From the IMG/VR virus record IMGVR_UViG_3300046533_001163: 64,000 nucleotides of DNA. One strand, written 5' to 3'. This stretch comes from a virus. Lineage: Duplodnaviria; Heunggongvirae; Uroviricota; Caudoviricetes. A program made the position numbers and the translations under genes. Below the pieces are notes generated by a model, which ran no database searches, was not told the origin of the DNA, and was given only the letters and a program-made list of their open reading frames with translations. Shown piece by piece: positions 1-56,912 of the stretch (positions are counted from its first letter, which is position 1; each line of letters begins with the position of its first letter).

Positions 1-930
1 GTACCGCCAAAGTTCAAAAACCTGTCCTGCCGTAAAAGGTTCGGCGTAAAGACGGAAGTCACGTATCGGTCCTACGAAGTCATGGCTTGCACTAGCTCCG
101 CTAGTGGCAACCTGCCCACCGATGGTAATAGCCTGATTAGCACAAGATAATACTCCAGCAGCGTTTGCGCTGCTGGAGTTACTCGTAGCAATTAATTGTC
201 CATTAATATAAAAAGACTGAGGTCGTGGTGATGGAAATCCTGTAAACTTACTTACAACACAAGCATGTATCCATTCGCCAGGATTATCATCAATCCTAAT
301 AACAAAGTCATTACCGGCATAAATGTTATCGATCCAGTGTAATTCACGAGTATGAGGATCGTACCAGAGGTACCATCCTTGAATTGTCGCTGGCCCACTA
401 TCATGAGGAACATGATTGCCAACAATAACATAGGTAAAACCAATAGAAGCTTGGTCCGGCGGTATCATAAACCAAATTGACATTGTCCAGCCGACTGATT
501 CTGAATTTACAATTTGCGGAATAGAGCACTGGGTAGGTACAGTAATATAATTACTGACGGCGGTCATATTAAACACCATACCGAAATATGTGTCATATAT
601 CCACTGACCAGTTAGATGACCTGTCAACGAGCCGTTAAAGTGGTTTGGTCCTACGTCCCTAACTGGCCAGCCGCCGGAAGTGCTGGTCCCGTTGGAATCT
701 CCAGAACCATCGTTCAACGGCATGGCCAACACAAGTGTTGGCGTGAACTGTGAACTACCTTCGTTAATGCCAGGACACCAGCGTCCTCCCCACTCTACGT
801 TTGTAATACAAGGACGAACATCGGGGACTGAGCCAGAGAACGACTGGATAGAAACTAGCTGACCGTCCGTACTGGCCGTGAAAGTAGGATTAATAGTAGA
901 AAATGTGGGCAAAGTACGGACTAGGGCCAT
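1..930 (-). CDS. LamG/concanavalin A-like jelly-roll domain protein, probable virion/tail protein; 3' end runs off the window (not in ORF track)
   Basis: Manual translation: ATG at 930, no stop down to position 1 (310 codons): MALVRTLPTF...MPLNDGSG...DVGPNHFNGSLTG...WTMSIWF...EWIHACVV...FYINGQLIAT...ITIGG...FVGPIRDFRLYAEPFTAGQVFELW. Typical Laminin_G_3 pattern; preceded by TAAATA-atat-ATG. Confidence 0.85.
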   Translation of the reverse strand, partial: MALVRTLPTFSTINPTFTASTDGQLVSIQSFSGSVPDVRPCITNVEWGGRWCPGINEGSSQFTPTLVLAMPLNDGSGDSNGTSTSGGWPVRDVGPNHFNGSLTGHLTGQWIYDTYFGMVFNMTAVSNYITVPTQCSIPQIVNSESVGWTMSIWFMIPPDQASIGFTYVIVGNHVPHDSGPATIQGWYLWYDPHTRELHWIDNIYAGNDFVIRIDDNPGEWIHACVVSKFTGFPSPRPQSFYINGQLIATSNSSSANAAGVLSCANQAITIGGQVATSGASASHDFVGPIRDFRLYAEPFTAGQVFELWRY

Positions 931-958
931 ATATTATTTAGAGAATCTCAACTATATT

Positions 959-1810
959 ATGGGCATGCCGCCAGATATAGCTCCAATAAGAAATAAAACA
1001 GCAAAAGATAAACCATGGGAAGGCAATATAAGTAAGAAACCATGGGATTATCAGGTGAGCGCCACGATAGCAGTATTAGACGCTGTAGAGCCACTAAAAC
1101 TCGCCGTCCAGTTACTACAACTACAAACAATCAAGCCTTATATCATTTTAGTAGATACTGGGAGTACGCCAGAAAACTACAAGGAAATAGAACAACTAAG
1201 ATCTGAAAACATAGAAGTCCATTCTTTAAAACTAAATGCAGTAGAGCACCCCTCAGACTTTGTGGCGATGGCATGTGATTTAGCCGGGTCGGTATGTAGA
1301 ACAAAGTATATGCTATGGACACATGCCGATTGTTTCTTAACACGAAGAGATGTAATAGAAGAATTACTTGAATTATGCGACACAGAAAATCCGGTTGTCG
1401 GCTACCGATTATCGCCTAGAGCACACGACAACTGGAAAGATATGTTCGGCCATACGCTGACTATGACTGAAATGAGCAAGTACTTAGAATACAGAATAAT
1501 GTGGAATTTAAAACAATTCTGTAATTTTTATGGCTTCCCAAATCACAAGCCAGATGAATCGCGGCCCAATTTACCAGACACAGAATATTTTGCTAATTTA
1601 ATATACCAAGACTGTGGGGTTAAAGCCACACTAATCGGCGACGAAGAAAACTTCAAGAGAAATATAACAGATCATTTTGACCATTGTAGATCTTTTGCAT
1701 CAGGCATGCTGTACGCGCCGGAATACTATAAAATATGCCAAACATGGATGAATGATGCCATGAAAGATGCGAGAGCTAGAATTAAAGAGTGGGGAAAAGA
1801 TGGATTGTAG
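959..1810 (+). CDS. GT-A fold (GT2-like) glycosyltransferase
   Basis: IILVDTGS and MLWTHADC motifs. Start moved from GTG 878 to ATG 959 because 878-930 overlaps the divergent LamG gene. Confidence 0.65.
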   Translation: MGMPPDIAPIRNKTAKDKPWEGNISKKPWDYQVSATIAVLDAVEPLKLAVQLLQLQTIKPYIILVDTGSTPENYKEIEQLRSENIEVHSLKLNAVEHPSDFVAMACDLAGSVCRTKYMLWTHADCFLTRRDVIEELLELCDTENPVVGYRLSPRAHDNWKDMFGHTLTMTEMSKYLEYRIMWNLKQFCNFYGFPNHKPDESRPNLPDTEYFANLIYQDCGVKATLIGDEENFKRNITDHFDHCRSFASGMLYAPEYYKICQTWMNDAMKDARARIKEWGKDGL

Positions 1811-1826
1811 AATGTTTTAGTATATT

Positions 1827-2510
1827 CTACATCTCTAATCTTGTTAATATTCTACTGATAATTTCATGACGAACAATATCTTCTGGTCCAAGTCTGATAA
1901 CGCTTATTAAATCTAGGCCCTCTAATTTAGATGCCAATGATTCTAAAGCGCCCTGTTTAAATTTAGGAAGATCAGACTGGACCGTGTCTCCAGTAATCAC
2001 CATCTTAGAACCCTCGCCGAACCGAGTTAACAACATTTTAATCTGTTCAAGTGTAGCATTCTGGCATTCATCCGCGATAATAAATGCATTTTTAAATGTA
2101 CGACCACGCATATAATTAAGAGGCAATATTTCAATCTGCTCTATTTCAGAAACATCACGCCTTGACGAGTTTTTAATTTCATCAAATAATGGGTGCATAT
2201 AAGGCTCTATTTTTTCCAGGGCTGACCCAGGAAGATATCCGAGACTTCCGCCGGCTTCAACAACTGGCCTTGTCAATATAATTTTATCAACAAACTTATT
2301 GTGAAGATGCTCGGCGGCCGTCGCGGCTGCAATAAAAGTTTTGCCGGTTCCAGCACCACCAAGAACAAATGTAATTAAATTAGCGTTAATAGCATCAATT
2401 AATAAAGCTTGATTTTTAGTCCTAGGAATTAATTTTCTAGGAGGCAAAGGCTGATTTTCAGGTTTCCCTTTCCCCGACGACGCTTTTGCACGTTTGCGAT
2501 TTGCCATCAA
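1827..2510 (-). CDS. phoH: PhoH-family ATPase
   Basis: GGAGTGKT, LTRPVVEAG, LGYLPG, YMRGRTF, IIADECQN, LLTRFGEGSKMVITGDTVQSD, IVRH. Confidence 0.95.
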   Translation of the reverse strand: MMANRKRAKASSGKGKPENQPLPPRKLIPRTKNQALLIDAINANLITFVLGGAGTGKTFIAAATAAEHLHNKFVDKIILTRPVVEAGGSLGYLPGSALEKIEPYMHPLFDEIKNSSRRDVSEIEQIEILPLNYMRGRTFKNAFIIADECQNATLEQIKMLLTRFGEGSKMVITGDTVQSDLPKFKQGALESLASKLEGLDLISVIRLGPEDIVRHEIISRILTRLEM

Positions 2511-3599: not shown

Positions 3600-3621
3600 T
3601 TTTATAACATTCCTTCAAAAC

Positions 3622-3632
3622 TATTATAGTCA
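3622..3632 (-). promoter_or_regulatory. TGACTATAATA promoter motif, copy 1
   Basis: Exact 11-mer also at 37380-37390 and 38756-38766, each 19-22 nt upstream of an ATG. Confidence 0.55.
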
Positions 3633-9720: not shown

Positions 9721-10521
9721 CTATGTAAGAGATTCCGATGTTGGTGATTGTTGAACCTTGATGACAAAACTGCCATCTGTAGGAAACCTACGAACCCATT
9801 CCACGCCTTCGCCAATAAAACATCCATATTCACTAGGAGTAAAACTAGTAAAGCTTGGTGTTGAAATTGATAATGAATTTACCATACTCATAGATGTCGT
9901 CATCTTTAATAACTTAAACTCAAAATTAAAACACCCAGGAACACAAGTATCATTAGAGAGCCATTCATAAACAAGTTGGCTTTTAGTTAAAACATTAGTA
10001 GAAACTGTTCCATCAACCTGAAGCTGATCTTCGTAAGTTAACTCCGTCTGAGCAACAGAATTCAAAACCCTAAATATTTTTAAACAAGTGCCCTTTTTAT
10101 AATCGCCAACTGGTGTACCATTATACCCTCTAAGAACTTGCACCAACTTAAGATTTTCGTCAAACCCAGTAATTAGCATCTGCTCTGGATTACGAACTCT
10201 ACTCACAACTATAATATCGCCAACCAACGCCTGCTGAAAACCAATACCGTCTGCTAAAGCAAAATAAGTGTCTGTAGACGTAATAGCTGATTTAAGCTTC
10301 GCATTCGCCCACATACTCGCTTCTAATACAAGTCCAGTTAAATCTATCGGACCATTACAATCTGAAATAGCAACTTTAAACGGAGGCTTGGTGTCATGCT
10401 GTTTGATCTGGAAATCTGGGCAACTTCCATCACAATTAAACTCATCGGGACACCCGCCATTACAATTAGTTGAACTAGCAAAACTGTTTAAATTACTTGA
10501 ATTACTTTGAGAGCATGTCAT
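9721..10521 (-). CDS. BppU-N-like virion structural protein with Cys-rich N-terminus
   Basis: FQIKQHDTKP...DCNGPIDLTG...LVYEW...DT..PG.F..EFKL resembles the BppU N-terminal family; no SD, AT-rich promoter-like sequence immediately upstream. Confidence 0.5.
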   Translation of the reverse strand: MTCSQSNSSNLNSFASSTNCNGGCPDEFNCDGSCPDFQIKQHDTKPPFKVAISDCNGPIDLTGLVLEASMWANAKLKSAITSTDTYFALADGIGFQQALVGDIIVVSRVRNPEQMLITGFDENLKLVQVLRGYNGTPVGDYKKGTCLKIFRVLNSVAQTELTYEDQLQVDGTVSTNVLTKSQLVYEWLSNDTCVPGCFNFEFKLLKMTTSMSMVNSLSISTPSFTSFTPSEYGCFIGEGVEWVRRFPTDGSFVIKVQQSPTSESLT

Positions 10522-10544
10522 ACCATTATATATCTTGCACTAAA

Positions 10545-13731: not shown

Positions 13732-13791
13732 ATCGTTTACTTAACAATACTCCAAAAATTTCAAAAAGGAAGTAAAATCCATAAATATTTT

Positions 13792-14262
13792 ATGAAATAC
13801 CTACTTGCTGCATTTGTGTGTCTATTCGTTGCCGGTTGCAATGTGTCCCCATTTTCTCCTAATACCAAACAAGAGGTACAAAATCAAGGGGGAAGTATCG
13901 ATGAAATAAAAAACAATACCAATGGTATTATGTCAGAAATTGGAACGATGAAACAAAAATTGGATATTCACGCCAGTAAAATAGGCGAAATCCAAGAGGG
14001 GATTGCAAACCTAAAAGTAAAAATAGGAGGGAATGAAAATAACGGAACACAAATACTGTCCGGTGACGGTGCTCTTTTATCCATATTTGCCATAGCAGTG
14101 ATAGGAATGCTTCTTTTCTACTTCTACAAGGAAAAGAAAATCACTAAGATATTGGCTACAGAAATCAAAAACAGAAACGATGTATCTTTACACGAAGGGG
14201 TGATTCGCGCAGCATCATACACAATGGTTGAAAAAGATGTTTATAATTTATTGTATAAGTAG
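13792..14262 (+). CDS. Lipoprotein with coiled coil and C-proximal TM helix (spanin-like topology)
   Basis: True start ATG 13792 after TAAATA-tttt; lipobox LFVAG-C; heptad region; TM GALLSIFAIAVIGMLLFYFY. Confidence 0.7.
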   Translation: MKYLLAAFVCLFVAGCNVSPFSPNTKQEVQNQGGSIDEIKNNTNGIMSEIGTMKQKLDIHASKIGEIQEGIANLKVKIGGNENNGTQILSGDGALLSIFAIAVIGMLLFYFYKEKKITKILATEIKNRNDVSLHEGVIRAASYTMVEKDVYNLLYK

Positions 14263-21563: not shown

Positions 21564-22028
21564 CTAAACTCTATCGCCCATTAAATCATCACTCAAGAAA
21601 TCAATCTTGGCGCGCATTTCATCAAGGAGCTTTTTAACTTCGGCTGCACTTTCCTTAGTTAAATTAGAATTTAAGGCAAATATTCCATTAGTAGAGATGT
21701 GATGTAATCTTTCAAGTACCTCAACAGAAACCTTAAGATTATGCAACGCATCTAACTTTGGACCAAAAGAAAAATCGGGAGTCGCCTTATTATCGCCGTC
21801 ATTTCCAAGCGTATATGTATCAACTGGATTATCGGCCATTCCTTTAGGCTTAAAAGAAAGCCTATGAACCTTCTCTTCTGGACTATACTGATCTTTGTCA
21901 TAGTAATCAACAGACTGATTGCCGAAAGCATCATTGGCTCTCTGTGTGCCATTCATTAGCTCTGCCTCCTGCTCTTCTTTAGACAGTGCCGCAGAATAAG
22001 CCTCAATCAATTCTCTCATAGATTCCAT
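21564..22028 (-). CDS. Hypothetical late protein
   Basis: 154 aa; TAAATA then GGAGG SD upstream. Confidence 0.6.
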   Translation of the reverse strand: MESMRELIEAYSAALSKEEQEAELMNGTQRANDAFGNQSVDYYDKDQYSPEEKVHRLSFKPKGMADNPVDTYTLGNDGDNKATPDFSFGPKLDALHNLKVSVEVLERLHHISTNGIFALNSNLTKESAAEVKKLLDEMRAKIDFLSDDLMGDRV

Positions 22029-22083
22029 ATAGATTTTCCTCCATATTATTTATGCCGCCCACAACAAAAACCGATAAACTAAC

Positions 22084-24534: not shown

Positions 24535-24893
24535 ATGTAATGTTATTTGTGTTAGGAACAATTGGAGCTTCGTTTATTCTAGTAGACAGCACTTTATTTG
24601 CTCCAATTAGAAGCAAGCTAGAAAAATATGAATACCTATATTCTATGGTTACTTGCTATCAATGCAACTCTTTCTGGCTCGGAATGCTATTTGGATTCTT
24701 TTTAATTTCCAGTAATTTGTTTAGCGTATTTGCTTGTGGTTGCGCTGCAAGTTTTCTTAGCATCTTTGCGGCAGCTTTTATCAATGTATTTGAATCGTTT
24801 ACTAGCAGAATGCAATCGCTTGGATCTCCCTTCCCGCAAAACGTTCCATGCGTTAACTGCGGCAAGAAACAAACAGAAGAAGCGTCTAAATAA
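24531..24893 (+). CDS. DUF1360-like membrane protein
   Basis: TM segments with CYQCNSFW (CxxCxxxW). Confidence 0.5.
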   Translation: MNVMLFVLGTIGASFILVDSTLFAPIRSKLEKYEYLYSMVTCYQCNSFWLGMLFGFFLISSNLFSVFACGCAASFLSIFAAAFINVFESFTSRMQSLGSPFPQNVPCVNCGKKQTEEASK

Positions 24894-24896
24894 CAT

Positions 24897-25577
24897 ATGA
24901 CGTGCAGAAAATACGTACGCGGATCATACCCCACTAAAGGGAAGTGTTCGCCTTGTGGCGTTTCATTGTGTAATTCTAAATTGCTACAATGCTGCGGTAA
25001 AATCTGTCCGCCTCCAGCGTGCCCGCAAATAGAAAATCAATATGGCATCGGCTGCTGCGCAATCATTGTAGATGGCGCAAGAACTATGAATTACTCTATA
25101 GAATCATCGTGTCCATGCCTAGATGGACTTACCGGCACATTTCAAGCTCTGGGGAATGGGGGTGAGGTAACATCTTGGGGAGAGGATGGCCATCACCTCG
25201 CTAGCCCTCAGTGCGACTGTCGGGAAGGCGGATGCCTAGGACTTCCAGATACATTCAATAAATCTACATTCAGCATGACGATCAGGTGCGACAGTGGTGG
25301 ATTTTCGCTACTGGCGCAAACTTTCGGCGGGAACAACCGAATGTGCGAAGGCGGCTCCTGGGTATGCCAAATGTCTGCAAATGCATCATGGGTGTGCTGC
25401 GATACATCCATGCCGTTACCACTAGAGCCAATAGGCATTGACGGACAAGCATGCGATAGTTTTTCTTACACCTTTGAGGGATTTATGATGAAGCCTGATT
25501 CTTTTTTTAATAGAAATACATGTGGCTGTCCATGTGCTCAAGGATCTTCTATATCCGTTACAGTTACAAATATATAA
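24897..25577 (+). CDS. Cys-rich late (probable virion) protein
   Basis: 24 Cys in 226 aa; TAAATA-acat-ATG. Confidence 0.7.
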   Translation: MTCRKYVRGSYPTKGKCSPCGVSLCNSKLLQCCGKICPPPACPQIENQYGIGCCAIIVDGARTMNYSIESSCPCLDGLTGTFQALGNGGEVTSWGEDGHHLASPQCDCREGGCLGLPDTFNKSTFSMTIRCDSGGFSLLAQTFGGNNRMCEGGSWVCQMSANASWVCCDTSMPLPLEPIGIDGQACDSFSYTFEGFMMKPDSFFNRNTCGCPCAQGSSISVTVTNI

Positions 25578-25580
25578 AAT

Positions 25581-26105
25581 ATGACAAGATGTAACACGCC
25601 AGGCAATCAAAAGTCCTGTTATGTAATAATAGGATTTACAAGTAACATCAAACTAGAGGCCGGAAGCCCAAATACATTTGACCTCCATTGCGTAAATCAA
25701 TTCTACTCAATCGGCGATCAAACAATAACTGAAAATGATATCATAAAAAAATATTACTGTAGTGATGGTAGTGACGGACATCTACCCTGCAATGTATCAT
25801 CGGAATGGGCGAATTGTAGCGTACAAGGTGTAACAGTATATCTCAATATCGGAGGACCATACTTAACGCCGCCGGTTGATGTGCATGATGGAGACAATAT
25901 AACAGTGATAGTCACCTTTCCCGGAGATGCACCAATAAACCCCCCCCTGTCCTTAGGAAGATTTCCTGACGGCATTGAGTGCGTACAGTCTATGCCTATG
26001 TTCGTCTTTAGCTACTATAAGCCTAGCCAAAACAAGATAGTTATAAACAGACAGGCATTAATTAGACAAATTAAAGCCGACCAAAAACGTAGAAATATCC
26101 GATAG
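25581..26105 (+). CDS. Cys-containing beta-rich late protein
   Basis: 174 aa; TATATA-aaat-ATG. Confidence 0.65.
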   Translation: MTRCNTPGNQKSCYVIIGFTSNIKLEAGSPNTFDLHCVNQFYSIGDQTITENDIIKKYYCSDGSDGHLPCNVSSEWANCSVQGVTVYLNIGGPYLTPPVDVHDGDNITVIVTFPGDAPINPPLSLGRFPDGIECVQSMPMFVFSYYKPSQNKIVINRQALIRQIKADQKRRNIR

Positions 26106-27090: not shown

Positions 27091-27633
27091 TCAATCCCCA
27101 TTACCCTTTTTGTAAATTTTCTTGATCTGGGATAAATCTTCCTTAGACGGCTTGCTACCACGATACTTCTGATATAATGGCTGCGCCTTGCACTTATGCT
27201 TCCAAAACTTCTCAGTAGCAATCTGTATTTCACATATCATGCCACCAATTACAATATCTACATGCACAGTTCCATAATAGCCAAACTCATACTCATTAGG
27301 ACTATCATTATGGGCGACCTTCTTAACAATGAAATGCTTCTTGATATTATCAACAATTTTAGATATTTGATTTTTGGTATCTACAAGAATCGCGGCCCTT
27401 AATATGTCAAATACCTTAGATGGAGACTTATTCCTTTTCTTGGTTTTATTATTAAACGACTTCTCGCTTTTAATATCTATGACAATCTTATGTCCATCAG
27501 CAGAATGCTTGAGTAGCGTAGCAAATTTTGGCTTCAATTCTAAAGCCATTTTCTTTGCTTTATCATAAGTTTGAAAATCCTGCTTTTTAGCAATCGGCTG
27601 AGGATTTTTCTCTATCCATTCTTTAAAGTCCAT
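27091..27633 (-). CDS. RelA/SpoT-family small alarmone synthetase-like nucleotidyltransferase
   Basis: IKSEKSFNNKTKKR (Syn1), FDILRAAILV (Syn2), GYYGTVH (Syn3), EIQIAT (Syn4); 180 aa with no hydrolase domain. Confidence 0.75.
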   Translation of the reverse strand: MDFKEWIEKNPQPIAKKQDFQTYDKAKKMALELKPKFATLLKHSADGHKIVIDIKSEKSFNNKTKKRNKSPSKVFDILRAAILVDTKNQISKIVDNIKKHFIVKKVAHNDSPNEYEFGYYGTVHVDIVIGGMICEIQIATEKFWKHKCKAQPLYQKYRGSKPSKEDLSQIKKIYKKGNGD

Positions 27634-27647
27634 ACATTATTTATGAA

Positions 27648-27842
27648 CTAGGATTTCTTCTTTTTCTTTTTACGATGTTCGGCCCTATCACCAGCACTAC
27701 CAATCGGCCAACCTTCCATTGAAACTCCGGCAACACCTGCCGAGCCAGCAATATTAAAACCGAGTTTCTGCAACCTGCTTTTTGGCACGGTCCCTACAAT
27801 AATTGCCCCGCCTTCTTTTAGCCATTCTTGAAACGTTTTCAT
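27648..27842 (-). CDS. Small basic late protein with capsid-targeting-like N-terminus
   Basis: MKTFQEWLKE..., C-terminal RKKKKKKS; TATATA-atat-ATG. Confidence 0.65.
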   Translation of the reverse strand: MKTFQEWLKEGGAIIVGTVPKSRLQKLGFNIAGSAGVAGVSMEGWPIGSAGDRAEHRKKKKKKS

Positions 27843-27858
27843 ATATTATATAACAAAA

Positions 27859-27883
27859 GCGGCCTAGGAAATTCCTAGGCCGC
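27859..27883 (-). terminator. Terminator hairpin insulating the late genes at 27091-27842
   Basis: GCGGCCTAGGAA-A-TTCCTAGGCCGC perfect inverted repeat followed by TTTTGTT on the minus strand. Confidence 0.75.
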
Positions 27884-27945
27884 TCACTATCCAAAAAGGA
27901 GACTTGGCTCCTGACAGAAATTATATACCAACTACGCTTTAATAA

Positions 27946-31827: not shown

Positions 31828-32079
31828 TTATCGTCCGAATCGGAACCCGAAGCCAAAATATGGCTGGTAGTATGGCTGATTATAGTAATAAGGGTTATTA
31901 TAATAATACGGCTGGTTGTAATAGGGGCGATTGTAGTATGGGTTCCCATAATACTGGCGACCATATGGGCGATTATAATTGTTATTCGGCCCACCTACAC
32001 CAACTCCAAGTCCCCATCCCGCATCACTTACGGCGGGAGCACACAAAAATAAAGCAACAGCAATCAATAGTTTTTTCAT
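31828..32079 (-). CDS. Secreted Tyr/Asn/Pro-repeat peptide
   Basis: Signal peptide MKKLLIAVALFLCAPAVSDA, then repeated YY(N/G)xPY. Confidence 0.65.
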   Translation of the reverse strand: MKKLLIAVALFLCAPAVSDAGWGLGVGVGGPNNNYNRPYGRQYYGNPYYNRPYYNQPYYYNNPYYYNQPYYQPYFGFGFRFGR

Positions 32080-32100
32080 GATTTTTTTCTCCAATTATAT

Positions 32101-32385
32101 TTATATTTCCGAACGAACATCTTCAACAAGCATCACGTACTCTTGTGCTTTTTTCAGTACTTTCAGACAAAGACTTTTGACAATGCTATCATAATTATTC
32201 CGCAAAGTGCCAACCTCAAACCTGTTATAAACTAAATAACCGCCATTATTAGTATCAATAATACCTATATTCCATAGGCCCATATCGTATATTCCAACGG
32301 ATAATCCCCGGCGTGAAAACTGGTAGCCATTCAGGCTCTTCCTTGCGAAACCTTTTTCCATCAAATAAGCCATATCATCTTCCAT
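32101..32385 (-). CDS. Hypothetical protein
   Basis: 94 aa, packed. Confidence 0.5.
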   Translation of the reverse strand: MEDDMAYLMEKGFARKSLNGYQFSRRGLSVGIYDMGLWNIGIIDTNNGGYLVYNRFEVGTLRNNYDSIVKSLCLKVLKKAQEYVMLVEDVRSEI

Positions 32386-33779: not shown

Positions 33780-35159
33780 TCAATTTTTGGGTTTTGAGAA
33801 TTTTGTTAAAAACTCATTAACTGTTTGATCAAAAACATTTTTAGTTTTTTTAGTGAAGGCGCATGGCAATGAAACCTGTTTAATCGCTTCCACAATCTTC
33901 TGGTCACTTTTAGCCAAAACATCCTTCAACTTATCAAAGAAGACACTAGAGTTTGCTTTAGTGATTTTCTTCATTCCACTAAAATTCTCCTGCCATATCT
34001 TTTGAGTAATTTGCTTATTCTCCTCATACTTTTCTTTATACTCGGCATTTATCTGATTAACTTTATCAATAGAATCTTGCGCTAAAGATTTAGTCCAGTT
34101 CCATGCCTGTAATGCAGGAATGGTACAAATAAACTTCATCATCTGATCTTCTAGCTCATACATTTCGTCCGGGCCATCGCCAGCAAAAAAATCTTCTATC
34201 TGCTTAGAGTTCATGCCTTTGAGAAATTCTTCTTCTAACGTTTCGCTGATTAATTCAAAAACATCAAAATCATATGTGATATGGCGCACTTCGCGGCCTG
34301 GTTCATGAACATCAAAAGACTCGCCAGTATAACAACTATAAAGCCACTCGCCCAAAAACTCAAAACTCAAAAGACGATCTGATTTTCCAGTATTAACAAA
34401 CTCTAGTTCGCCAGAACAATCCCACTCTGGATCTTTATCATAATTAACATTAAAAGTTGGTCCTTCTAATACCCACTCGGAATACATCTGACAAATAACA
34501 AGAGCAATTTTCTTTCTTAGAGAACATCTAACTTTTAGAAAATCAAACTTATCTCTATTTTTTGCGTACCAAGTAGATTCATTAAATATAACTTCTTTAT
34601 ACTTAACTTCCTCCGAATGCATCAATTCATGTTCTGAAAATTGTTCCTGCAATATATCAGACGTTCGCTCTGGATAATCGTACTCCAACAAAGCCTGGTT
34701 TAAAAAACTATCGGCATAAAATTTCTCCCCACAAGTGTCGCAAGTAGAGAATATATTAAATAAATTATGATCATCTAATTCTGCCGGAAGCCTATGGCCA
34801 TGATGAATTTCTTTAGAAAGATACTCTACAAACTCTTCTTTACGCTCTTCTAAAGTTTCAGTTTTATATGGAGACATATAACTATCAATAACATTAATCT
34901 CGTCTGCCACTTCGTCTAACCATAAGTTAGCATTCCCAGTTAGTTGCTTAATCTGCTTTTCGGTAGATGCGTAAAAGAAATTACCACATTGAAAACAAAT
35001 GCACACAGGACCATTCTTAGTTGCGTCATGTTTTAATAAATGATTCTGACAAGACGGACAAGTTAAGAAGTGACTTTTGTCAGAACTCTTCTGACGACTT
35101 ATAGTTCCACGCTTAACTAATTTATCAAATAAATGTTTATTCATACAGTTAGTCTCCAC
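33780..35159 (-). CDS. Hypothetical acidic protein with Zn-ribbon motifs
   Basis: CPSC..CFQC near the N-terminus, CDTC; directly downstream of dnaE-N. Confidence 0.7.
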   Translation of the reverse strand: METNCMNKHLFDKLVKRGTISRQKSSDKSHFLTCPSCQNHLLKHDATKNGPVCICFQCGNFFYASTEKQIKQLTGNANLWLDEVADEINVIDSYMSPYKTETLEERKEEFVEYLSKEIHHGHRLPAELDDHNLFNIFSTCDTCGEKFYADSFLNQALLEYDYPERTSDILQEQFSEHELMHSEEVKYKEVIFNESTWYAKNRDKFDFLKVRCSLRKKIALVICQMYSEWVLEGPTFNVNYDKDPEWDCSGELEFVNTGKSDRLLSFEFLGEWLYSCYTGESFDVHEPGREVRHITYDFDVFELISETLEEEFLKGMNSKQIEDFFAGDGPDEMYELEDQMMKFICTIPALQAWNWTKSLAQDSIDKVNQINAEYKEKYEENKQITQKIWQENFSGMKKITKANSSVFFDKLKDVLAKSDQKIVEAIKQVSLPCAFTKKTKNVFDQTVNEFLTKFSKPKN

Positions 35160-35161
35160 TA

Positions 35162-36496
35162 TTATTTATCGGCTACTGGCTCCAATAAATTAATATCAAA
35201 CTTATAGTCAATAGCCCGGCCTCGTGCCTCGCTCAAAAACCTACTAAATAGCAATCCGTGGTGCACACTATCAATATCTGTAATGCCCATTGTATAGAGC
35301 ACTAGGCTTGACGCTGCACTACCTCTGCCTGGATTAATAGCATTGGTTTCACTAGTTCCCAAAACATCTCTACAATACCTGCGAGCTTCATCAATCACTT
35401 GTTGTTGTATAAGAAAATACGATGAAAATCCTTTACGGGTAATCAAATCATACTCTTCCGCAATTCTCTTCTTGTACTCAGTTGTGTTAGGAAGATTTCG
35501 TTTTTTAAAACCAACTTTAATTGCTTCTTTTAACTTTTCGTCAGCATCAGGTATTTCCGGCAGTTTAATAGATCGGTCAATCCTAACGCCTTCTGCCATC
35601 TGACAAATTCTTACAGTATTACGCTTTGCTTCTTGATAAATGTCTAGTGGAATAATATCACTAAAATCGTTCTCCCACTTTTCATTTAACTGTTGTTCAT
35701 TCTTGAAATAAATTTGCTTATCTTGTACCTCAAACATATCGTTACCAGCCGCAACTAACTTATCTAGTTCAGCTCTAGTTCTCTTACTTTGAACCAACAG
35801 TAAATTTGTTTGCGCTTCGTGATCTTGCTGGTCCACATAATGCACATCATTAGTTAATACCATATGAATGTTGTGCTTTAAATGCATCTTTACCAAAAAC
35901 TGGTTGAACGCTCGTTGTGGCGCATAATCAATCATCATCATTTCAAGATAATAATTATCACCAAACACAGAACGATAATCTAGAATCATTGCTTCGGCTG
36001 CATCTTCACCATGATTAACAAATGCCTGTCCTACTTCCCCCATAATACAGCAAGAGCCAACAATTAATCCTTCAGAAAACTTCTTAAGAACGTCCCAGTT
36101 AACTCTAGGCTTGTAATAAAAGCCATGTATCTCGGCAAAACTAGTAATCTGTACTAGGTTGCTGTATCCTACATTACTAGCCGCAATTAAAAGAAGATGA
36201 TAAGATTTCTTAATCTTAACTCGTTCTTCTGGGGGTAGGTCAGCAAAAGTATCTGGGTTATGCGCTCGCTGTATGTATATTTCACAAGCAATTACCGGCT
36301 TTGTCCCAAATTTATCACATGCTCTTAGCTGTGATGGAACAGCAGCCATTGATCCATGATCGCTCAAGCAAAGATACTGATGATTATTTTTCTTTGCTTT
36401 CTCAGCGTATTGATGGCAGAAACCAACAGCATCTAGAATACTCGCTTCAGCACTATGAAGATGAAGATGCTCAAATCCAGTAATTTCCTGTTTCAT
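35162..36496 (-). CDS. dnaE: DNA polymerase III alpha, N-terminal polypeptide (PHP domain and start of palm)
   Basis: HLHLHS, LSDHG, IACEIY, YHLLL, YYKPRV, TNDVHY, YFLI, PGRGSAASSLVLY..GITDID, LLFSRFL; stops just before the PDxDxD motif. Confidence 0.92.
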   Translation of the reverse strand: MKQEITGFEHLHLHSAEASILDAVGFCHQYAEKAKKNNHQYLCLSDHGSMAAVPSQLRACDKFGTKPVIACEIYIQRAHNPDTFADLPPEERVKIKKSYHLLLIAASNVGYSNLVQITSFAEIHGFYYKPRVNWDVLKKFSEGLIVGSCCIMGEVGQAFVNHGEDAAEAMILDYRSVFGDNYYLEMMMIDYAPQRAFNQFLVKMHLKHNIHMVLTNDVHYVDQQDHEAQTNLLLVQSKRTRAELDKLVAAGNDMFEVQDKQIYFKNEQQLNEKWENDFSDIIPLDIYQEAKRNTVRICQMAEGVRIDRSIKLPEIPDADEKLKEAIKVGFKKRNLPNTTEYKKRIAEEYDLITRKGFSSYFLIQQQVIDEARRYCRDVLGTSETNAINPGRGSAASSLVLYTMGITDIDSVHHGLLFSRFLSEARGRAIDYKFDINLLEPVADK

Positions 36497-40344: not shown

Positions 40345-40350
40345 TTAATC

Positions 40351-42825: not shown

Positions 42826-42864
42826 AATTATTTTAAATACAAACATCAAAATAAGGAATCAATC

Positions 42865-44094: not shown

Positions 44095-44142
44095 TTTTAA
44101 ATTTTATCAGTAAAAATCAAGCTTTCACAAGAAAGAAATAAA

Positions 44143-50484: not shown

Positions 50485-50539
50485 ATGATACTCCTAATGA
50501 AACGATAGAATAATATATCTAAGGTTGAATAAATATTAT

Positions 50540-51202
50540 ATGACAAACAAGTATTTAGTTATAATAATCATATTATTATTGGCCGTAATCATATTTAGAC
50601 ACAGCAGAACCACCATTGAAGTTGGCGTTCATCAGCCTAATACAAGCGAAAAAGTAAACCTAGATCCAGCAGTGCCGAAAGAAGACGTCGTAACCGAACC
50701 GACTCCAGCAGAAACTCCCAACACAGAAGTCAAAACAGACAGTCCCCCTATGGTAATTGCTCCGGTGCCGGTGCCTGCCCCAATCCCAGTGCCCGACACA
50801 GTACCCCCACCAAAGAGTAACGATGTGGTTTTTGTGTATAGCATGACCGATGCTATTAAAAAATCTAAAGAATTAAACAAAAAAATATTAGTATTCTTTC
50901 ACGCTCCATGGTGCGGAGCATGCGAAACAATGAAAGACTATTTTCCAGGCTCTAAGCATCCTAATAAAGATGTAAAGACCGCCATGTTAGATTACGTTGT
51001 CTTTATGTGTAATACTGACGTTGACAGGGCAATGGCTAAAAAATATGGAATTTACGGACTCCCAACCTATATTATCATTGATGAAAATGAAAATATCATC
51101 AAAAGCGGTGTCGGAGGACTACCAGCAAGACAATTTATTAGCTGGCTAAACATATCTAAATCAACAAAACCTAAAGCCAGATTTAATAACTCAAGACGAT
51201 AG
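50540..51202 (+). CDS. Membrane-anchored thioredoxin-fold protein
   Basis: N-terminal TM, Pro-rich linker, WCGAC, cis-Pro loop GLPT; TAAATA-ttat-ATG. Confidence 0.85.
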   Translation: MTNKYLVIIIILLLAVIIFRHSRTTIEVGVHQPNTSEKVNLDPAVPKEDVVTEPTPAETPNTEVKTDSPPMVIAPVPVPAPIPVPDTVPPPKSNDVVFVYSMTDAIKKSKELNKKILVFFHAPWCGACETMKDYFPGSKHPNKDVKTAMLDYVVFMCNTDVDRAMAKKYGIYGLPTYIIIDENENIIKSGVGGLPARQFISWLNISKSTKPKARFNNSRR

Positions 51203-52059: not shown

Positions 52060-52093
52060 GATAACTTTCCGAGCCAGAAATAATAAATATAAT

Positions 52094-53035
52094 ATGGCAA
52101 AGAAAAAATACAAAAAAAATACATGCTTCCTACCAAAGTTCACCGTAGAACCAGTGGTTAGTATGCTAGAAGCATCCCAACGCGCAGGATGGCAAATTAC
52201 TAAATTTGACTTCCCTGACGTTTGGAAATATACAAGAGGCAAAGGTGTGGTCGTCGCCGTTATTGATAGCGGCTGCGATATGGATCATGAAGATTTAAAA
52301 GACAACCTTATCCCAGGCCCTAACTTCGTTATCCCTACATCCTTGCCAGAAGATGACTGTGGCCACGGTACGCATTGCGCCAGTTTGATCGCGGCCGAGA
52401 ATAATGAAGTAGGTTTGATCGGACAATCCCCAGAAGCCAAAGTAATGGTAATTAAAACATTGGACAGAAACGGGATAGGAAATTTACAGACTGTAGCCAA
52501 GGCTATCAGGTGGGCGGTAGACAGTAAGGCCGATATAATTTCTATGTCACTAGGATGTCCTAATGAAACTCCAGAAATATATAAAGCCGTAATGTATGCC
52601 TATAGCCAGAACGTACCTATATTCTGCGCATCTGGAAACTCTGGAAACCTAAACAATATATTCTGGCCCGCAAATTATAAAGAAACAATAAGCGTATCTG
52701 CTTATGATGAAAATATGCACAGAGCGCATTTTGCCAACGTATCTCCAAATATTAACTTCTTTGCGCCAGGGACATCGTTATTCGGAGCATATCTAAATAA
52801 TGATTATACGATTATGTCTGGAACAAGCATGGCCTGCCCGATAATGGCATCTGCCGCTGCTCTGATATTATCATATAAGAGAAACTATCAAACAGATATT
52901 AAATTAAATTCTGTTGAGGACTACCGAGATATTCTAAAACAATACTGCAAGCCTATTAGCGATAACTGCTCTCAGGGATTTGGGTTCTTTAATCCAGATG
53001 TATTTTTAGAGTGGATTAAGAAACAGCCGGTCTAA
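52094..53035 (+). CDS. Subtilisin-family (S8) protease
   Basis: VAVIDSG, HGTHCA, SGNSG, GTSMACP; TAAATA-taat-ATG. Confidence 0.93.
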   Translation: MAKKKYKKNTCFLPKFTVEPVVSMLEASQRAGWQITKFDFPDVWKYTRGKGVVVAVIDSGCDMDHEDLKDNLIPGPNFVIPTSLPEDDCGHGTHCASLIAAENNEVGLIGQSPEAKVMVIKTLDRNGIGNLQTVAKAIRWAVDSKADIISMSLGCPNETPEIYKAVMYAYSQNVPIFCASGNSGNLNNIFWPANYKETISVSAYDENMHRAHFANVSPNINFFAPGTSLFGAYLNNDYTIMSGTSMACPIMASAAALILSYKRNYQTDIKLNSVEDYRDILKQYCKPISDNCSQGFGFFNPDVFLEWIKKQPV

Positions 53036-55254: not shown

Positions 55255-56080
55255 CTCTTATCTCCTGTAAGGTTAAAACTTTGGGAAGAACATCATTAGA
55301 TATTTTACTAATCTCAATTTTCTGAATACTTCTTAAAGAAGTCCGCGGTTCACTGTTACTTTTTACTTGCTTAACCGGACAACCAGTAAAAAAATGAACC
55401 TTTTTTAACTTTTCCTGCTCTTCTATAATGTTTTTATCTAAGAAGGCATGTTGGTACGCCTCTTGCCAATAATCGTACTCATAGTCTTTAAGAATAAAAT
55501 CCCCGAATCCCTGATTGGTGAAAAAGTCCTTAACTAACATGCAATCAATTCCACACTTATTGGCAATATCATAGGCAAAAGATATTATCACAGACAAAGT
55601 AAATCCTATGTCTGCTTTATTCCTGCGTGACAACTCCATAACATAATCACGCATACCACTATACGGACTATGCCAAACAAAACAATCTGATACTGCCGCC
55701 TTTTCAGCATCCCTAGAATAAAGATCAAACAAATCTCCGATATTATCAAATCGGTATTCTGCTAATCCACTAAATTGCGGATCAAAATTGAACGTCATCC
55801 AAGCTAGCGCACATCTATGGATGCTGCCAAGACAGCAAGACTGCTTTCTATCTACCTGATTTTCAATCTGCCGAAATTTTCTAATAATAAAATCACAAAA
55901 ATCAAGTTCCGTAATTCTATGCCGGAGCTGAACCGGCAAGTTGAGATAATTTTTATCCAATTTTGCAAAGTACGAATGCAGAGCATCCAATTTACAGGCT
56001 ACAATGCCAGGAAGAAGACACTTCCACTGGCCCATTAAAGCGCCATCATATTTAATGTCGCTGATAAATCGTGCGCTCAT
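55205..56080 (-). CDS. Hypothetical protein, 291 aa
   Basis: Long ORF; no family recognised. Confidence 0.65.
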   Translation of the reverse strand: MSARFISDIKYDGALMGQWKCLLPGIVACKLDALHSYFAKLDKNYLNLPVQLRHRITELDFCDFIIRKFRQIENQVDRKQSCCLGSIHRCALAWMTFNFDPQFSGLAEYRFDNIGDLFDLYSRDAEKAAVSDCFVWHSPYSGMRDYVMELSRRNKADIGFTLSVIISFAYDIANKCGIDCMLVKDFFTNQGFGDFILKDYEYDYWQEAYQHAFLDKNIIEEQEKLKKVHFFTGCPVKQVKSNSEPRTSLRSIQKIEISKISNDVLPKVLTLQEIRDAKNDDDDSVVCGFYC

Positions 56081-56085
56081 TATTT

Positions 56086-56886
56086 TTACGGAAACACGGT
56101 GCCTTGGATTTGTAAAGTGGCCGAATCAGACGGCAGGGCCGCAGATCCCGCAGGTGTGACTCTTTTTAGCCAAAGAGGAAATCCTTCTTCGGCCCTCAAT
56201 GTTGCTATTGTAATAGATCCGCTGGTAAATACAACCCCAGTTGGGGTAGTTGCGACATTTCCAGTGCTCTGAGCAATATCATTTCTTGGACCACCTTCTG
56301 TTATCGTGCTCATAGTTGGATTGGGTACAGATGGGGTCAAAGCATTCGTATCTACCACCAAAAGATTTTGATTTCTATTGCCGTCATCACCGGTAAATGT
56401 TATTGTGTAATTAGAGCCACTTGAATGAGCACAAGAAACCTGTGACAAACCAGCGGTTCCATTCAACCCAGCCTGCAAATTTACGGCAAAAACTGACGGC
56501 GTATTGTCCCAGTTGATCTGGGGAGATAAAGCGTTTTCGTATTTTAGCACTAAATTTCCACCTGTTGGCGACCCATTTATCGCAATTCGCTGAACCTCAT
56601 TTCTTGCTAAAACTCCAATAGTAATAGTAGAACCGCCAGCAATCTGGGATTGCAAAGAAACAGAAACATTGTAGAATACATCCGTTGAATTGTTATTAAA
56701 TACGTAAATACAGCGATAGTCAGTATACCCGCTTTGAGCCTGTGCGGCAGTCACATTAGTGAACAAGTTATTCAGCGTTGTTCCGACTGCATGCGAACTA
56801 GGTTGCCCACCAAAAGAAAGAGCCGGATTAGTATTGCTTGAACCCCCTGAAAGCACTATGCTAATATCCGAAGCCATAATCGTCAT
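56086..56886 (-). CDS. Probable tail/virion structural protein
   Basis: NNLF.NV.......YRCIYV.N; EVQ.I......TGG...L....I.W module typical of tail proteins; TAAATA-aggt-ATG. Confidence 0.65.
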   Translation of the reverse strand: MTIMASDISIVLSGGSSNTNPALSFGGQPSSHAVGTTLNNLFTNVTAAQAQSGYTDYRCIYVFNNNSTDVFYNVSVSLQSQIAGGSTITIGVLARNEVQRIAINGSPTGGNLVLKYENALSPQINWDNTPSVFAVNLQAGLNGTAGLSQVSCAHSSGSNYTITFTGDDGNRNQNLLVVDTNALTPSVPNPTMSTITEGGPRNDIAQSTGNVATTPTGVVFTSGSITIATLRAEEGFPLWLKRVTPAGSAALPSDSATLQIQGTVFP

Positions 56887-56912
56887 ACCTTATTTACCCT
56901 GAGAGGTTGAAA

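What the first reader, a model, noticed from the sequence alone, without database searches (positions are those of the whole stretch)
928..56896. TAAATA-NNNT-ATG: T4-like late promoters that predict leaderless late mRNAs
Seen: exact TAAATA, four bases and ATG precede genes starting at 930(-), 13792(+), 24897(+), 27633(-), 50540(+), 52094(+) and 56886(-). TATATA-N4-ATG precedes 25581(+) and 27842(-). In all nine the fourth spacer base is T and there is no SD. Known: T4 late promoters are a lone TATAAATA with the start site a few bases downstream. Inference: transcription starts at the A of ATG (pyrimidine at -1, purine at +1), so late, mostly virion-type genes would be translated from leaderless mRNAs, while the other genes use sigma70 promoters and SDs. 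That would be a two-tier transcription/translation programme.
Basis: partly seen in the sequence, partly recalled or inferred. Interest (0 to 1): 0.75.

Follow-up and report, generated by a model that had tools for sequence, protein, structure and literature searches.

The report
Late promoters fused to start codons
In this roughly 511-kb uncultured soil phage a short T4-style promoter box (TAAATA or TATATA) sits exactly four bases before the ATG of ten genes that have no ribosome-binding site, so their messages most likely begin at the start codon; relatives share the layout, T4 does not, and no RNA data confirm it yet.

Summary
TAAATANNNTATG occurs 8 times against 0.45 expected, and 7 of these open long ORFs. 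Two TATATA variants and a tenth site (10521, minus strand) also open ORFs. None has a usable SD, all start with ATG, and all have T at -1.

The layout extends to relatives. In the complete 595-kb relative LR756511.1, [A/C]TAnATA lies 4-5 nt before the ATG of about 60 genes. There, 85% have a pyrimidine at -1, non-ATG starts are rare, a position-specific A/T tract lies 15-20 nt upstream, and terminators directly upstream are more frequent than at SD-led genes. Over half of these genes encode proteins with a T4-like capsid-targeting N-terminus (M-x-T-F-x-E-W/F).

Both relatives encode T4-type gp23, gp21 and a gp55-like region-2-only sigma. The best reading is a -10-like late promoter fused to the start codon, giving leaderless mRNAs.

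Caveats:
- The T4 octamer TATAAATA is absent.
- No gp55 homologue was found in the 86 kb of this genome I could read.
- "Mostly virion genes" is only partly borne out.
- No 5' ends are mapped.

T4 itself lacks the layout; the cultured SAR11 phage HTVC008M has it. This scan has already reported the same layout in many other giant-phage genomes.

The parts
928..940 (-). TAAATA-ATAT-ATG at the start of a 1645-aa Laminin_G_3 protein gene. The window holds its first 310 codons, 1-930(-).
   Evidence: Full gene length and domains come from the identical contig L045/L048. A TGCCCATAATATAG box lies at 952-965(-).
13782..13794 (+). TAAATA-TTTT-ATG, start of a 156-aa ORF (13792-14262) at a divergent junction.
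   Evidence: No family hit.
24887..24899 (+). TAAATA-ACAT-ATG, start of a 226-aa Cys-rich ORF (24897-25577). The box overlaps the stop codon of the upstream gene.
25571..25583 (+). TATATA-AAAT-ATG, start of a 174-aa Cys-rich ORF (25581-26105). The box overlaps the stop codon of the upstream gene.
27631..27643 (-). TAAATA-ATGT-ATG, start of a 180-aa RelA_SpoT-like ORF (27091-27633) that begins MDFKEWIE (capsid-targeting-like).
   Evidence: The counterpart in relative G001 (MQFQNWL..., 178 aa; matched by size and N-terminus, no tblastn hit) keeps TAAATA-N4-ATG.
27840..27852 (-). TATATA-ATAT-ATG, start of a 64-aa ORF (27648-27842) that begins MKTFQEWLKE. Compare T4 IPII/IPIII, MKTYQEFIAE.
   Evidence: The counterpart in G001 (MSFKEWL...; matched by size and N-terminus) keeps TAAATA-N4-ATG.
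27853..27885 (-). Intrinsic terminator (13-bp GC-rich stem plus TTTTGT) that ends directly against the TATATA box of the 27842 gene.
   Evidence: dG about -24 kcal/mol.
50530..50542 (+). TAAATA-TTAT-ATG, start of a 220-aa thioredoxin-domain ORF (50540-51202) at a divergent junction.
52084..52096 (+). TAAATA-TAAT-ATG, start of a 313-aa S8 subtilase ORF (52094-53035).
   Evidence: The orthologue in G001 is SD-led instead.
56884..56896 (-). TAAATA-AGGT-ATG, start of a 266-aa ORF (56086-56886) that heads a leftward operon. It is only 20 nt from the divergent gene.
   Evidence: The same divergent junction in G001 carries TAAATA-ATGT-ATG on an extra 101-aa gene.
10519..10532 (-).
35142..35168 (-). 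TAAATA-N18-ATG with GGAG starting 5 nt after the box. Predicted late promoter with a minimal SD-bearing leader.
   Evidence: Anecdotal: GGAG at this offset is not statistically enriched.
32077..32103 (-). TAAATA-N18-ATG with GGAG starting 5 nt after the box (gene product begins MKKLLIAVALFL).
22026..22052 (-). TAAATA-N18-ATG with GGAGG starting 4 nt after the box.
34757..34769 (+). An eighth exact TAAATANNNTATG that is not a gene start (3 codons, antisense inside 33780-35159). Either chance or an antisense promoter.

Best explanation
The hexamer [A/C]TA(A/T)ATA is the -10-like element of a phage-specific, probably late, promoter class. It corresponds to positions -11 to -6 of the T4 late box TATAAATA, with the first two positions relaxed as in Aeromonas phage Aeh1. 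In ten genes of this window the box lies four bases (once five) before the ATG. RNA polymerase would then start at the A of ATG (T at -1, A at +1), and the mRNA would have no leader and no SD. Ribosomes would have to load directly on the 5'-terminal AUG.

An A/T tract about 15-20 bp upstream of the box helps. The class includes capsid-targeted (packaged) proteins, which must be made while proheads assemble.

Shown: the motif, its spacing and its statistics; its recurrence in relatives; the T4-type head genes and gp55-like sigma in those relatives. Inferred: promoter function, the start site, late timing, which sigma reads the box, and leaderless translation.
For: Window:
- 8 matches against 0.45 expected, with a single spacing peak at 4 nt.
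- 9 of 11 TAnATA-N4-ATG copies are gene starts.
- T at -1 in all copies and no usable SD.
- A strong terminator abuts the box at 27853-27885(-), leaving no room for another promoter or a leader.
- At 56886/56907 the divergent genes are only 20 nt apart.

Relative LR756511.1 (595 kb, complete):
- TAAATA followed by an ORF-opening ATG: 15 at spacing 4 and 15 at spacing 5, against a background of 1-5.
- TAnATA before the first ATG of a frame: 26 and 31 at spacings 4 and 5, against about 0.5 per 1000 internal ATGs.
- Base at -1 is C or T in 55 of 65, against 44% at SD-led starts (p = 4e-10).
- Starts are ATG 60, GTG 2, TTG 1, against 11.6% non-ATG at SD-led starts.
- The A/T tract at -19 to -16 from the box is 85-89% A/T and position-specific (p = 1e-14). 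It is also significant in the window (p = 0.006) and in G001 (p = 0.003).
- A terminator lies within 40 nt upstream at 7 of 65 sites, against 9 of 385 SD-led starts.
- A or C precedes the box in 70 of 88 pooled sites.

Relative G001 (98 kb): 8 sites at spacing 4 and 6 at spacing 5, including counterparts of the two capsid-targeting genes of the window, matched by size and N-terminus.

Gene class: 17 of 30 TAAATA-linked ORFs in LR756511.1 start M-x-T-F-x-E-[WF]. This resembles T4 IPII/IPIII, MKTYQEFIAE (role of the targeting sequence: PMC9026906).

Machinery: both relatives have gp23 (E about 1e-87), gp21 protease and a gp55-family sigma (phrog_234, E = 5e-11 and 7e-8). That sigma family keeps the T4 pocket residues Y97, T99 and F86 (PMC7892883). 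gp32 and RecA-like genes lie just past the window's end.

Geometry: the T4 box ends at -6 (PMC2988020), which puts +1 on the A of ATG at spacing 5.

Precedent: phiYS40 middle and late mRNAs are leaderless (PMC3594737), and a -10 region adjacent to ORFs is common in Deinococcus-Thermus (PMC12340547).
Against: - No RNA 5' ends exist for this phage or for any relative examined.
- The full T4 octamer is absent from every site.
- In this genome the spacing is 4, not 5. Strict T4 geometry would then put +1 on the T of ATG.
- An alternative register, with the two invariant A's of the box in the -12 and -8 pockets of gp55, would put +1 on or after the G of ATG and lose the AUG.
- No gp55 homologue was found in the window or in 22 kb upstream. 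It was also absent from the best 80 metagenome loci. The only sigma seen in this genome is a region 2+4 type.
- No gp45-type or DnaN clamp was detected in the relatives.
- Direct profile comparison of the sigma family with T4 gp55 is weak (E = 0.06).
- Orthologues of two motif genes are SD-led in relatives.
- The major capsid gene of the relatives is leadered.
- Several motif genes here are enzymes with no shown virion role.
- The phage encodes IF-3, a factor that normally disfavours leaderless initiation.
Confidence: 0.6

Rival explanations
1. Same promoter and leaderless layout, but read by another sigma. The candidates are the region 2+4 sigma encoded 4.3-5 kb before the window, or the host's primary sigma. 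In this reading the upstream A/T tract serves as a -35 substitute.
For: - The only sigma found in this genome's accessible DNA has regions 2 and 4 (215 aa, phrog_351), and LR756511.1 has an orthologue.
- A position-specific upstream element exists, which T4 late promoters lack (PMC2988020).
- No gp55 homologue was found in the 86 kb read.
Against: - TAnATA fits neither key base of a sigma-70 -10 hexamer in one register (A at -11 and T at -7).
- The A/T tract has no fixed sequence and lies about 3 bp closer to the box than a -35 hexamer would.
- The two relatives examined (and about 1000 metagenomic proteins) carry a conserved gp55-like sigma.
Confidence: 0.2
2. The hexamer acts in RNA. Transcription starts further upstream, perhaps with the A/T tract as the real -10. 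UAnAUA, 4-5 nt before the AUG, then replaces the SD as a ribosome or protein binding site in a short leader. An example would be a RegA-like regulator or an S1/bS21-dependent enhancer.
For: - The fixed distance to the AUG would also suit a translation signal.
- Three sites lie at gene junctions inside operons.
- The phage carries IF-3 and a bS21-like gene.
- The A/T tract lies 25-30 nt before the ATG.
Against: - The hexamer has no complementarity to the 16S 3' tail (own knowledge).
- The pyrimidine preference at -1 (C as often as T) matches start-site selection, not known start-codon contexts.
- The A/T tract has no -10-like consensus.
- Terminator hairpins lie directly against some boxes.
- The box matches the T4-family late core, including the A/C before it (PMC2988020).
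- The same hexamer lies 33 nt upstream of the capsid gene in LR756511.1, with a separate SD-like AGGAAA.
Confidence: 0.12
3. The box is a gp55-type promoter in the other register (box at -13 to -8). Transcription would then start at or after the G of ATG, as at phiKZ TATG late promoters, and these ATGs would not be the translated starts.
For: - The invariant A's of the box are 4 nt apart, like the T4 bases at -12 and -8 that enter the conserved Y97 and T99 pockets (PMC7892883).
- TATG is invariant in this window.
- phiKZ late promoters start at the G of TATG (PMC4666361).
Against: - The ATGs are the first in-frame starts of long ORFs.
- Many are followed at a fixed distance by the capsid-targeting peptide, which must begin at that Met.
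- T at -1 is replaced by C in half of the sites in the relative, so TATG is not the conserved unit.
- No downstream SD-led alternative start is evident.
Confidence: 0.03
4. Chance, base composition, or copying of one 5' gene end among paralogues.
For: - The genome is AT-rich.
- TAA within the box often doubles as a stop codon.
- The capsid-targeting genes form a family that could have spread together with its upstream box.
Against: - 0 of 100 shuffles reach the observed counts.
- The motif genes in the window are mostly unrelated to one another.
- Sequence outside the box and the A/T tract is not conserved.
- Internal ATGs show no such spacing.
Confidence: 0.02

Closest known systems
Bacteriophage T4 late promoters (TATAAATA at -13 to -6; gp55 sigma, gp33 co-activator, gp45 clamp; PMC2988020, PMC7892883)
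   Same: - A lone AT-rich -10-like box with the core TAAATA.
- A or C just before the core, as in T4 (A) and Aeh1 (C).
- The box-to-start distance fits +1 on the A of ATG at spacing 5.
- Relatives encode a gp55-family, region-2-only sigma together with T4-type gp23 and gp21 and capsid-targeting peptides.
   Different: - The octamer is never complete.
- The third base of the hexamer is free in relatives (A > T > G > C).
- An upstream A/T tract is present.
- No gp45 clamp was detected in the relatives.
- The box is fused to the start codon. T4 shows no such fusion (3 matches against 4 in the control), and T4's own capsid-targeting genes are SD-led.
Leaderless middle and late mRNAs of Thermus phage phiYS40 (Sevostyanova et al. 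2007, as summarised in PMC3594737), and -10 regions adjacent to ORFs in Deinococcus-Thermus (PMC12340547)
   Same: A -10-like element a few bases before the start codon, no SD, and stage-specific phage genes expressed as leaderless mRNAs. This window also shares the PrkA-type kinase with phiYS40-group phages.
   Different: - Those promoters are read by the host's primary sigma and have the form TANNNT.
- Their hosts use leaderless mRNAs widely.
- Here the box is T4-late-like, SD-led genes are common in the same genome, and the phage adds its own IF-3 rather than lowering IF-3.
Pelagibacter phage HTVC008M (cultured T4-like SAR11 myophage, NC_020484)
   Same: TAAATA-N4/5-ATG occurs 16 times against 7 in the control. 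Of the 9 sites in 5.5-37.5 kb, 8 coincide with annotated CDS starts, mostly baseplate, tail and head genes.
   Different: - Its genome is only 147 kb, it belongs to a different family (Kyanoviridae) and it has a marine host.
- Its spacing is mostly 5, with a G after the box.
- I found no paper in the held library that describes this layout.
phiKZ non-virion RNAP late promoters (TATG; PMC4666361)
   Same: TATG is invariant at the sites in this window.
   Different: phiKZ starts at the G, has no -10 box, uses a phage multisubunit RNAP and makes no leaderless transcripts (PMC8244752). In relatives of this phage, C replaces the T at -1 in half of the sites.

Membership tests
T4-type (gp55-dependent) late promoter | 8-bp box TATAAATA about one helical turn upstream of the start (-13 to -6) | tested here: not met
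   None of the ten sites has the octamer. Only TAAATA or TATATA is present, preceded by A or C in 7 of the 9 sites tabulated, and no TATAAATA lies 4-5 nt before an ATG. The core matches positions -11 to -6. The relaxed -13/-12 positions have a precedent in Aeh1 (PMC2988020).
T4-type (gp55-dependent) late promoter | No conserved -35 element | tested here: inconclusive
   There is no -35 hexamer. However, a position-specific A/T tract lies at -19 to -16 from the box, in LR756511.1, in G001 and in the window.
T4-type (gp55-dependent) late promoter | The phage encodes a gp55-family sigma (region 2 only) | tested here: inconclusive
   Found in both relatives (phrog_234, E = 5e-11 and 7e-8), and it forms a family of more than 1000 members of about 181 aa. 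Not found in the window or in 22 kb of adjoining own-genome DNA. About 425 kb of the genome could not be read.
T4-type (gp55-dependent) late promoter | gp45 sliding clamp (and gp33) as activators | tested here: not met
   PF09116 (gp45) and PF00712 (DnaN) gave no hit in LR756511.1 or G001. gp33 was not tested. A conserved 107-aa ORF follows the sigma gene in G001 and has no family hit.
T4-type (gp55-dependent) late promoter | Drives late (virion and lysis) genes | tested here: inconclusive
   Two products have capsid-targeting-like N-termini and one is a 1645-aa Laminin_G_3 protein. The others are enzymes or unknowns. In LR756511.1, 17 of 30 are capsid-targeting-like. No timing data exist.
Leaderless mRNA genes (-10 element adjacent to the ORF) | -10-like element at a fixed short distance from the start codon, with no SD | tested here: met
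   Spacing is 4 nt in nine sites and 5 nt in one, and no SD lies at a usable distance.
Leaderless mRNA genes (-10 element adjacent to the ORF) | AUG as the start codon | tested here: met
   All ten sites in the window use ATG. In LR756511.1 the counts are ATG 60, GTG 2, TTG 1, against 11.6% non-ATG at SD-led starts.
Leaderless mRNA genes (-10 element adjacent to the ORF) | Mapped mRNA 5' end at, or within a few nt of, the start codon | not testable with these tools
   The phage is uncultured and no RNA data are available.
phiKZ-type nvRNAP late promoter | Conserved TATG with the start at G, and no -10 box | tested here: not met
   T at -1 is not conserved in relatives (C 28, T 27 of 65). A start at G would remove the AUG of ORFs that begin with a conserved targeting peptide (PMC4666361).

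The most novel reading that the evidence does not exclude
A widespread clade of giant T4-related phages runs a two-tier expression programme. Early and middle genes use SD-led mRNAs. A gp55-like region-2-only sigma starts transcription exactly on the A of AUG for a late regulon enriched in capsid-targeted (injected) proteins. The phage's own IF-3 and bS21 copies retune the ribosome's choice between the two kinds of mRNA. In this soil megaphage the system has tightened to a 13-nt unit, TA(A/T)ATA-NNN-T-ATG.
Probability: 0.25. Interest if true: 0.8.

Novelty: new variant of a known kind. Interest (0 to 1): 0.6.

Why it matters
If the start sites are confirmed, a large and environmentally widespread group of T4-related phages makes a whole class of late proteins from leaderless mRNAs. 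These range from soil and freshwater megaphages to a cultured SAR11 phage, and the class includes proteins packaged into the capsid. T4, the model for these phages, does not do this.

Consequences:
- Gene callers could fix start codons in these genomes, because the box marks the true ATG.
- The box would give a sequence-only marker for late and packaged proteins in uncultured giant phages.
- It would give a defined promoter-plus-sigma pair for study.
- It would make one question testable: how can a phage shift translation between SD-led and leaderless messages while carrying its own IF-3?

I found no paper in the held library that describes the layout.

Tried and rejected
- **Whole genome of the window:** not held. 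An exact-match scan of IMG/VR for the window found nothing, and megablast against GenBank phages found nothing.
- **The search for related loci with two motif proteins (27633 and 56886 genes):** no relatives found.
- **gp55 in the window:** HMM and phmmer searches found nothing.
- **Walking upstream with the look-up of encoding contigs:** this gave 22 kb more of the identical genome. It holds no gp55 and no further motif site. I stopped walking because the gene could lie anywhere in about 425 kb.
- **Metagenome scan with the gp55-family profile:** it returned 80 loci, none from this phage's samples or of about 511 kb. Those 245 kb around sigma genes show no 4-5 nt peak. This samples one neighbourhood only and says little.
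- **phrog_12791:** rang nowhere.
- **PDB sequence search with the sigma family:** it hit only sigma region 2 weakly, not the T4 gp55 chains.
- **GGAG 4-5 nt after TAAATA:** tested as a second read-out of the start site. There are three neat cases in the window but no enrichment in any genome.
- **TTAGTTATCCATA motif from a neighbouring window:** not enriched here.
- **AlphaFold model of the 266-aa product of the 56886 gene:** unusable (mean pLDDT 37), so I ran no fold search.
- **phiKZ-type reading:** rejected, see the rival explanations.
- **Sevostyanova 2007 (PMC1885378):** not held, so phiYS40 is cited through a review.

Full report
**What the window is.** The 64-kb window (GC about 38%) is phage DNA. 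It holds a two-piece DnaE-type polymerase, a PrkA-DUF444-SpoVR triad, DnaJ, IF-3, a peptide deformylase and many unknown genes. Earlier notes of this scan call the genome a roughly 511-kb soil phage. The nearest GenBank record is the 595-kb uncultured phage LR756511.1, whose PrkA is 55% identical. An IMG/VR fragment of 98 kb (IMGVR_UViG_3300032241_003073, here G001) is syntenic with window 51-59 kb at 30-43% protein identity. The whole genome is not held. Identical contigs let me read 22 kb beyond the window's start, with 0 mismatches over a 4127-nt overlap.

**The observation.** TAAATANNNTATG occurs 8 times against 0.45 expected, with no shuffle above 2. The eighth (34767, plus strand) opens 3 codons and is not a gene start. 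TATATANNNTATG occurs twice, and both copies open ORFs.

Among all 76 TAAATA copies the distance to the next ATG peaks only at 4 nt. Loosened to TANATA-N4-ATG there are 11 copies against 4.4 expected, and 9 of them are gene starts. Spacing 5 is not enriched here. One such copy, TATATA-ATGGT-ATG at 10521 on the minus strand, does head a 266-aa ORF.

T at -1 is present in all copies although the spacing search did not ask for it (chance about 8e-5). None of the sites has an SD at a usable distance, whereas about half of the other genes show AGGAG-type SDs. None has the T4 octamer.

**Context of the sites.** Four sites lie at divergent junctions (930, 13792, 50540, 56886). At 56886/56907 the two genes are 20 nt apart. 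The 27842 site lies directly after a strong intrinsic terminator, a 13-bp GC stem plus TTTTGT that ends against the TATATA box. Between that terminator and the ATG there is room for nothing but the box. Three sites (24897, 25581, 27633) lie at tight gene junctions, and in the first two the box overlaps the preceding stop codon.

**What the genes encode.**
- The 930(-) gene is a 1645-aa protein with two Laminin_G_3 domains.
- The 27633(-) gene is a small RelA_SpoT-like protein starting MDFKEWIE.
- The 27842(-) gene is a 64-aa protein starting MKTFQEWLKE.
- The others are an S8 subtilase, a thioredoxin-domain protein, two Cys-rich proteins and two unknowns.

The two N-termini resemble the T4 capsid-targeting sequence. 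I read MKTYQEFIAE directly from T4 ipII/ipIII. Its role in loading proteins into the prohead is reviewed in PMC9026906 and PMC3012670.

**Relatives carry the same layout.** In G001 the TAnATA box lies 4 nt (8 genes) or 5 nt (6 genes) before ORF-opening ATGs. These include counterparts of the two targeting-sequence genes, matched by size and N-terminus since tblastn found no similarity, and the head of the operon at the same divergent junction as 56886.

In the complete LR756511.1 genome:
- TAAATA followed by an ATG that opens an ORF of at least 60 codons: 15 at spacing 4 and 15 at spacing 5, with 1-5 at other spacings.
- TAnATA before the first ATG of a frame: 26 and 31 at spacings 4 and 5, with a tail of 13, 7 and 9 at 6-8. 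Internal ATGs show about 0.5 per 1000.
- The third base of the box is free: A 27, T 18, G 14, C 6.
- The base at -1 is a pyrimidine in 55 of 65 sites, against 44% at SD-led starts (p = 4e-10).
- Starts are ATG in 60 cases, GTG in 2 and TTG in 1, against 11.6% non-ATG at SD-led genes.
- The base before the box is A or C in 70 of 88 pooled sites (p = 2e-8).
- A position-specific A/T tract lies at -19 to -16 from the box (85-89% A/T, flanks at background). It is significant in all three genomes.
- Terminator-like hairpins end within 40 nt upstream at 7 of 65 motif starts, against 9 of 385 SD-led starts.
- Seventeen of the 30 TAAATA-linked ORFs begin M-x-T-F-x-E-[WF]. Among all such proteins the box is TAAATA, TATATA, TAGATA or TACATA at 4-5 nt.

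**Machinery.** Both relatives encode a T4-type major capsid protein (PF07068, E about 1e-87), a gp21-type prohead protease (PF03420) and a sigma that matches the PHROG containing T4 gp55 (phrog_234, E = 5e-11 and 7e-8). That sigma belongs to a family of more than 1000 metagenomic proteins of about 181 aa with only sigma region 2. Contigs carrying it reach 673 kb.

A direct profile comparison with T4 gp55 is weak (E = 0.06). It does align the T4 pocket residues F86, Y97 and T99 with invariant F115, Y125 and T127 of the family, while H95 becomes F. Pocket roles are taken from PMC7892883.

No gp45-type clamp or DnaN was found in the relatives. In this phage's own DNA I found gp32 and RecA-like genes just past the window. 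A region 2+4 sigma of 215 aa lies 4.3-5 kb before the window. There is no gp55 homologue in the 86 kb that I could read.

**Mechanism.** T4 late promoters are a lone TATAAATA at -13 to -6. Relatives such as Aeh1 vary -13/-12 (C at -12) and keep the core (PMC2988020). Aligned to -11 to -6, the megaphage box with 5 nt of spacer puts +1 exactly on the A of ATG. With 4 nt, as in this genome, +1 would fall one base later, and the invariant T(-1) A(+1) would pull initiation onto the A. Five features are what a promoter fused to a start codon predicts:
- the rigid spacing;
- the pyrimidine-purine step at the ATG;
- the near-exclusive use of ATG;
- the lack of an SD;
- terminators abutting the box.

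The link with capsid-targeted proteins fits late timing. I therefore read these as late promoters that give leaderless mRNAs (confidence 0.6). Which sigma reads them is an inference; I favour the gp55-like one.

Rivals are listed separately:
- the same layout read by the 215-aa sigma or the host sigma (0.2);
- an RNA-level translation signal in a short leader (0.12);
- the alternative register that starts at the G (0.03);
- chance or paralogy (0.02).

**Comparison with what is known.** T4 has no such fusion: TATAAATA-N3-7-ATG occurs 3 times against 4 in the control, and its targeting-sequence genes have AGGAAA leaders. phiKZ late promoters use TATG but start at the G (PMC4666361), and no leaderless phiKZ transcripts were seen (PMC8244752). 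AR9 has long leaders (PMC5312081).

Leaderless middle and late mRNAs are known for Thermus phage phiYS40 (PMC3594737), and -10 regions next to ORFs are common in Deinococcus-Thermus (PMC12340547). Those are read by the host sigma, in hosts where leaderless mRNAs are common.

The cultured SAR11 myophage HTVC008M shows the same layout. It has 16 TAAATA-N4/5-ATG copies against 7 in the control. Of the 9 sites in 5.5-37.5 kb, 8 coincide with annotated starts of tail, baseplate and head genes. I found no paper in the held library that describes it.

**Standing within this scan.** Earlier follow-up reports describe the same "late promoters fused to start codons" in many other uncultured giant T4-related phages and point to the SAR11 phages. 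My analysis of this genome was made before I read those notes, except for the HTVC008M test, which they prompted. New here:
- the strict 4-nt spacing with invariant T at -1;
- the free third base of the box;
- the upstream A/T tract;
- the statistical tie to capsid-targeting N-termini;
- the terminator-abutted example.

**Verdict.** It is not shown that the genes are mostly virion genes, that this genome has a gp55, or where transcripts start.

Noticed in passing
window 7183-7827(-), 16432-16929(-), 17308-17553(-): The phage encodes IF-3 (both domains, above the Pfam cut-offs), a peptide deformylase and a weak bS21-like protein. IF-3 normally discriminates against leaderless mRNAs, so its presence beside a predicted leaderless regulon is unexplained.
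   Followed up: partly
L045/L048 9274-9921(+), i.e. 4.3-5 kb before the window's start: A 215-aa sigma-70-family factor with regions 2 and 4 (phrog_351, E = 8e-28). It lies downstream of the 1645-aa Laminin_G_3 gene and an Amidoligase_2 gene. LR756511.1 has an orthologue (32% identity). It is not gp55-like.
   Followed up: partly
window 27648-27842(-), 27091-27633(-), 4073-4354(+); LR756511.1 genome-wide: N-termini of the form M-x-T-F-x-E-[WF] resemble the T4 capsid-targeting sequence MKTYQEFIAE. About 60 such ORFs occur in LR756511.1. The 93-aa ORF at 4073 (MNFLEFLY) has TAAATA 7 nt before its ATG.
   Followed up: partly
window 37377-37390(-), 38750-38766(both strands), 24363-24376(+), 952-965(-), 3619-3632(-): A recurring TGACTATAATATAG box (two exact copies, several copies with 1-3 mismatches) lies 20-35 nt upstream of SD-led genes. 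It is probably a different, host-type or early promoter class. Overall enrichment is modest (21 against 10.6 at up to 3 mismatches).
   Followed up: no
window 35142-35168(-), 32077-32103(-), 22026-22052(-): Three TAAATA-N18-ATG sites in which GGAG or GGAGG begins 4-5 nt after the box. Their predicted transcripts would start right at the SD. They are neat but not statistically enriched.
   Followed up: yes
window 40673-45708(+): A PrkA kinase, DUF444 and SpoVR triad. PrkA homologues occur in Thermus phiYS40-group phages and in several 600-kb uncultured phages.
   Followed up: no
window 8087-9709(-), 11090-12256(-): A TPP-dependent enzyme with three domains, and an indoleamine 2,3-dioxygenase-like protein (PF01231, E = 9e-71), both encoded by the phage.
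   Followed up: no
G001 (IMGVR_UViG_3300032241_003073) 63523-63828(+) and 39555-40421(+): A 101-aa protein with two HTH-like segments has TAAATA-ATGT-ATG at the divergent junction that matches window 56886. The gp55-like sigma gene of G001 is followed by a 107-aa ORF with no family hit, a possible gp33-like partner.
   Followed up: no
LR756511.1 524981(-) and G001 88688(-): The T4-type major capsid gene is not leaderless. In LR756511.1 a TAAATA lies 33 nt upstream with an AGGAAA in the leader. In G001 no TAnATA lies within 110 nt.
   Followed up: partly
beyond the window's end (Logan contig, gene table only): gp32-type ssDNA-binding protein, RecA/UvsX-like protein, dCMP deaminase and a DEAD-box helicase follow the window. 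These are T4-like replication and recombination genes, beside a DnaE-type polymerase rather than a family B polymerase.
   Followed up: no
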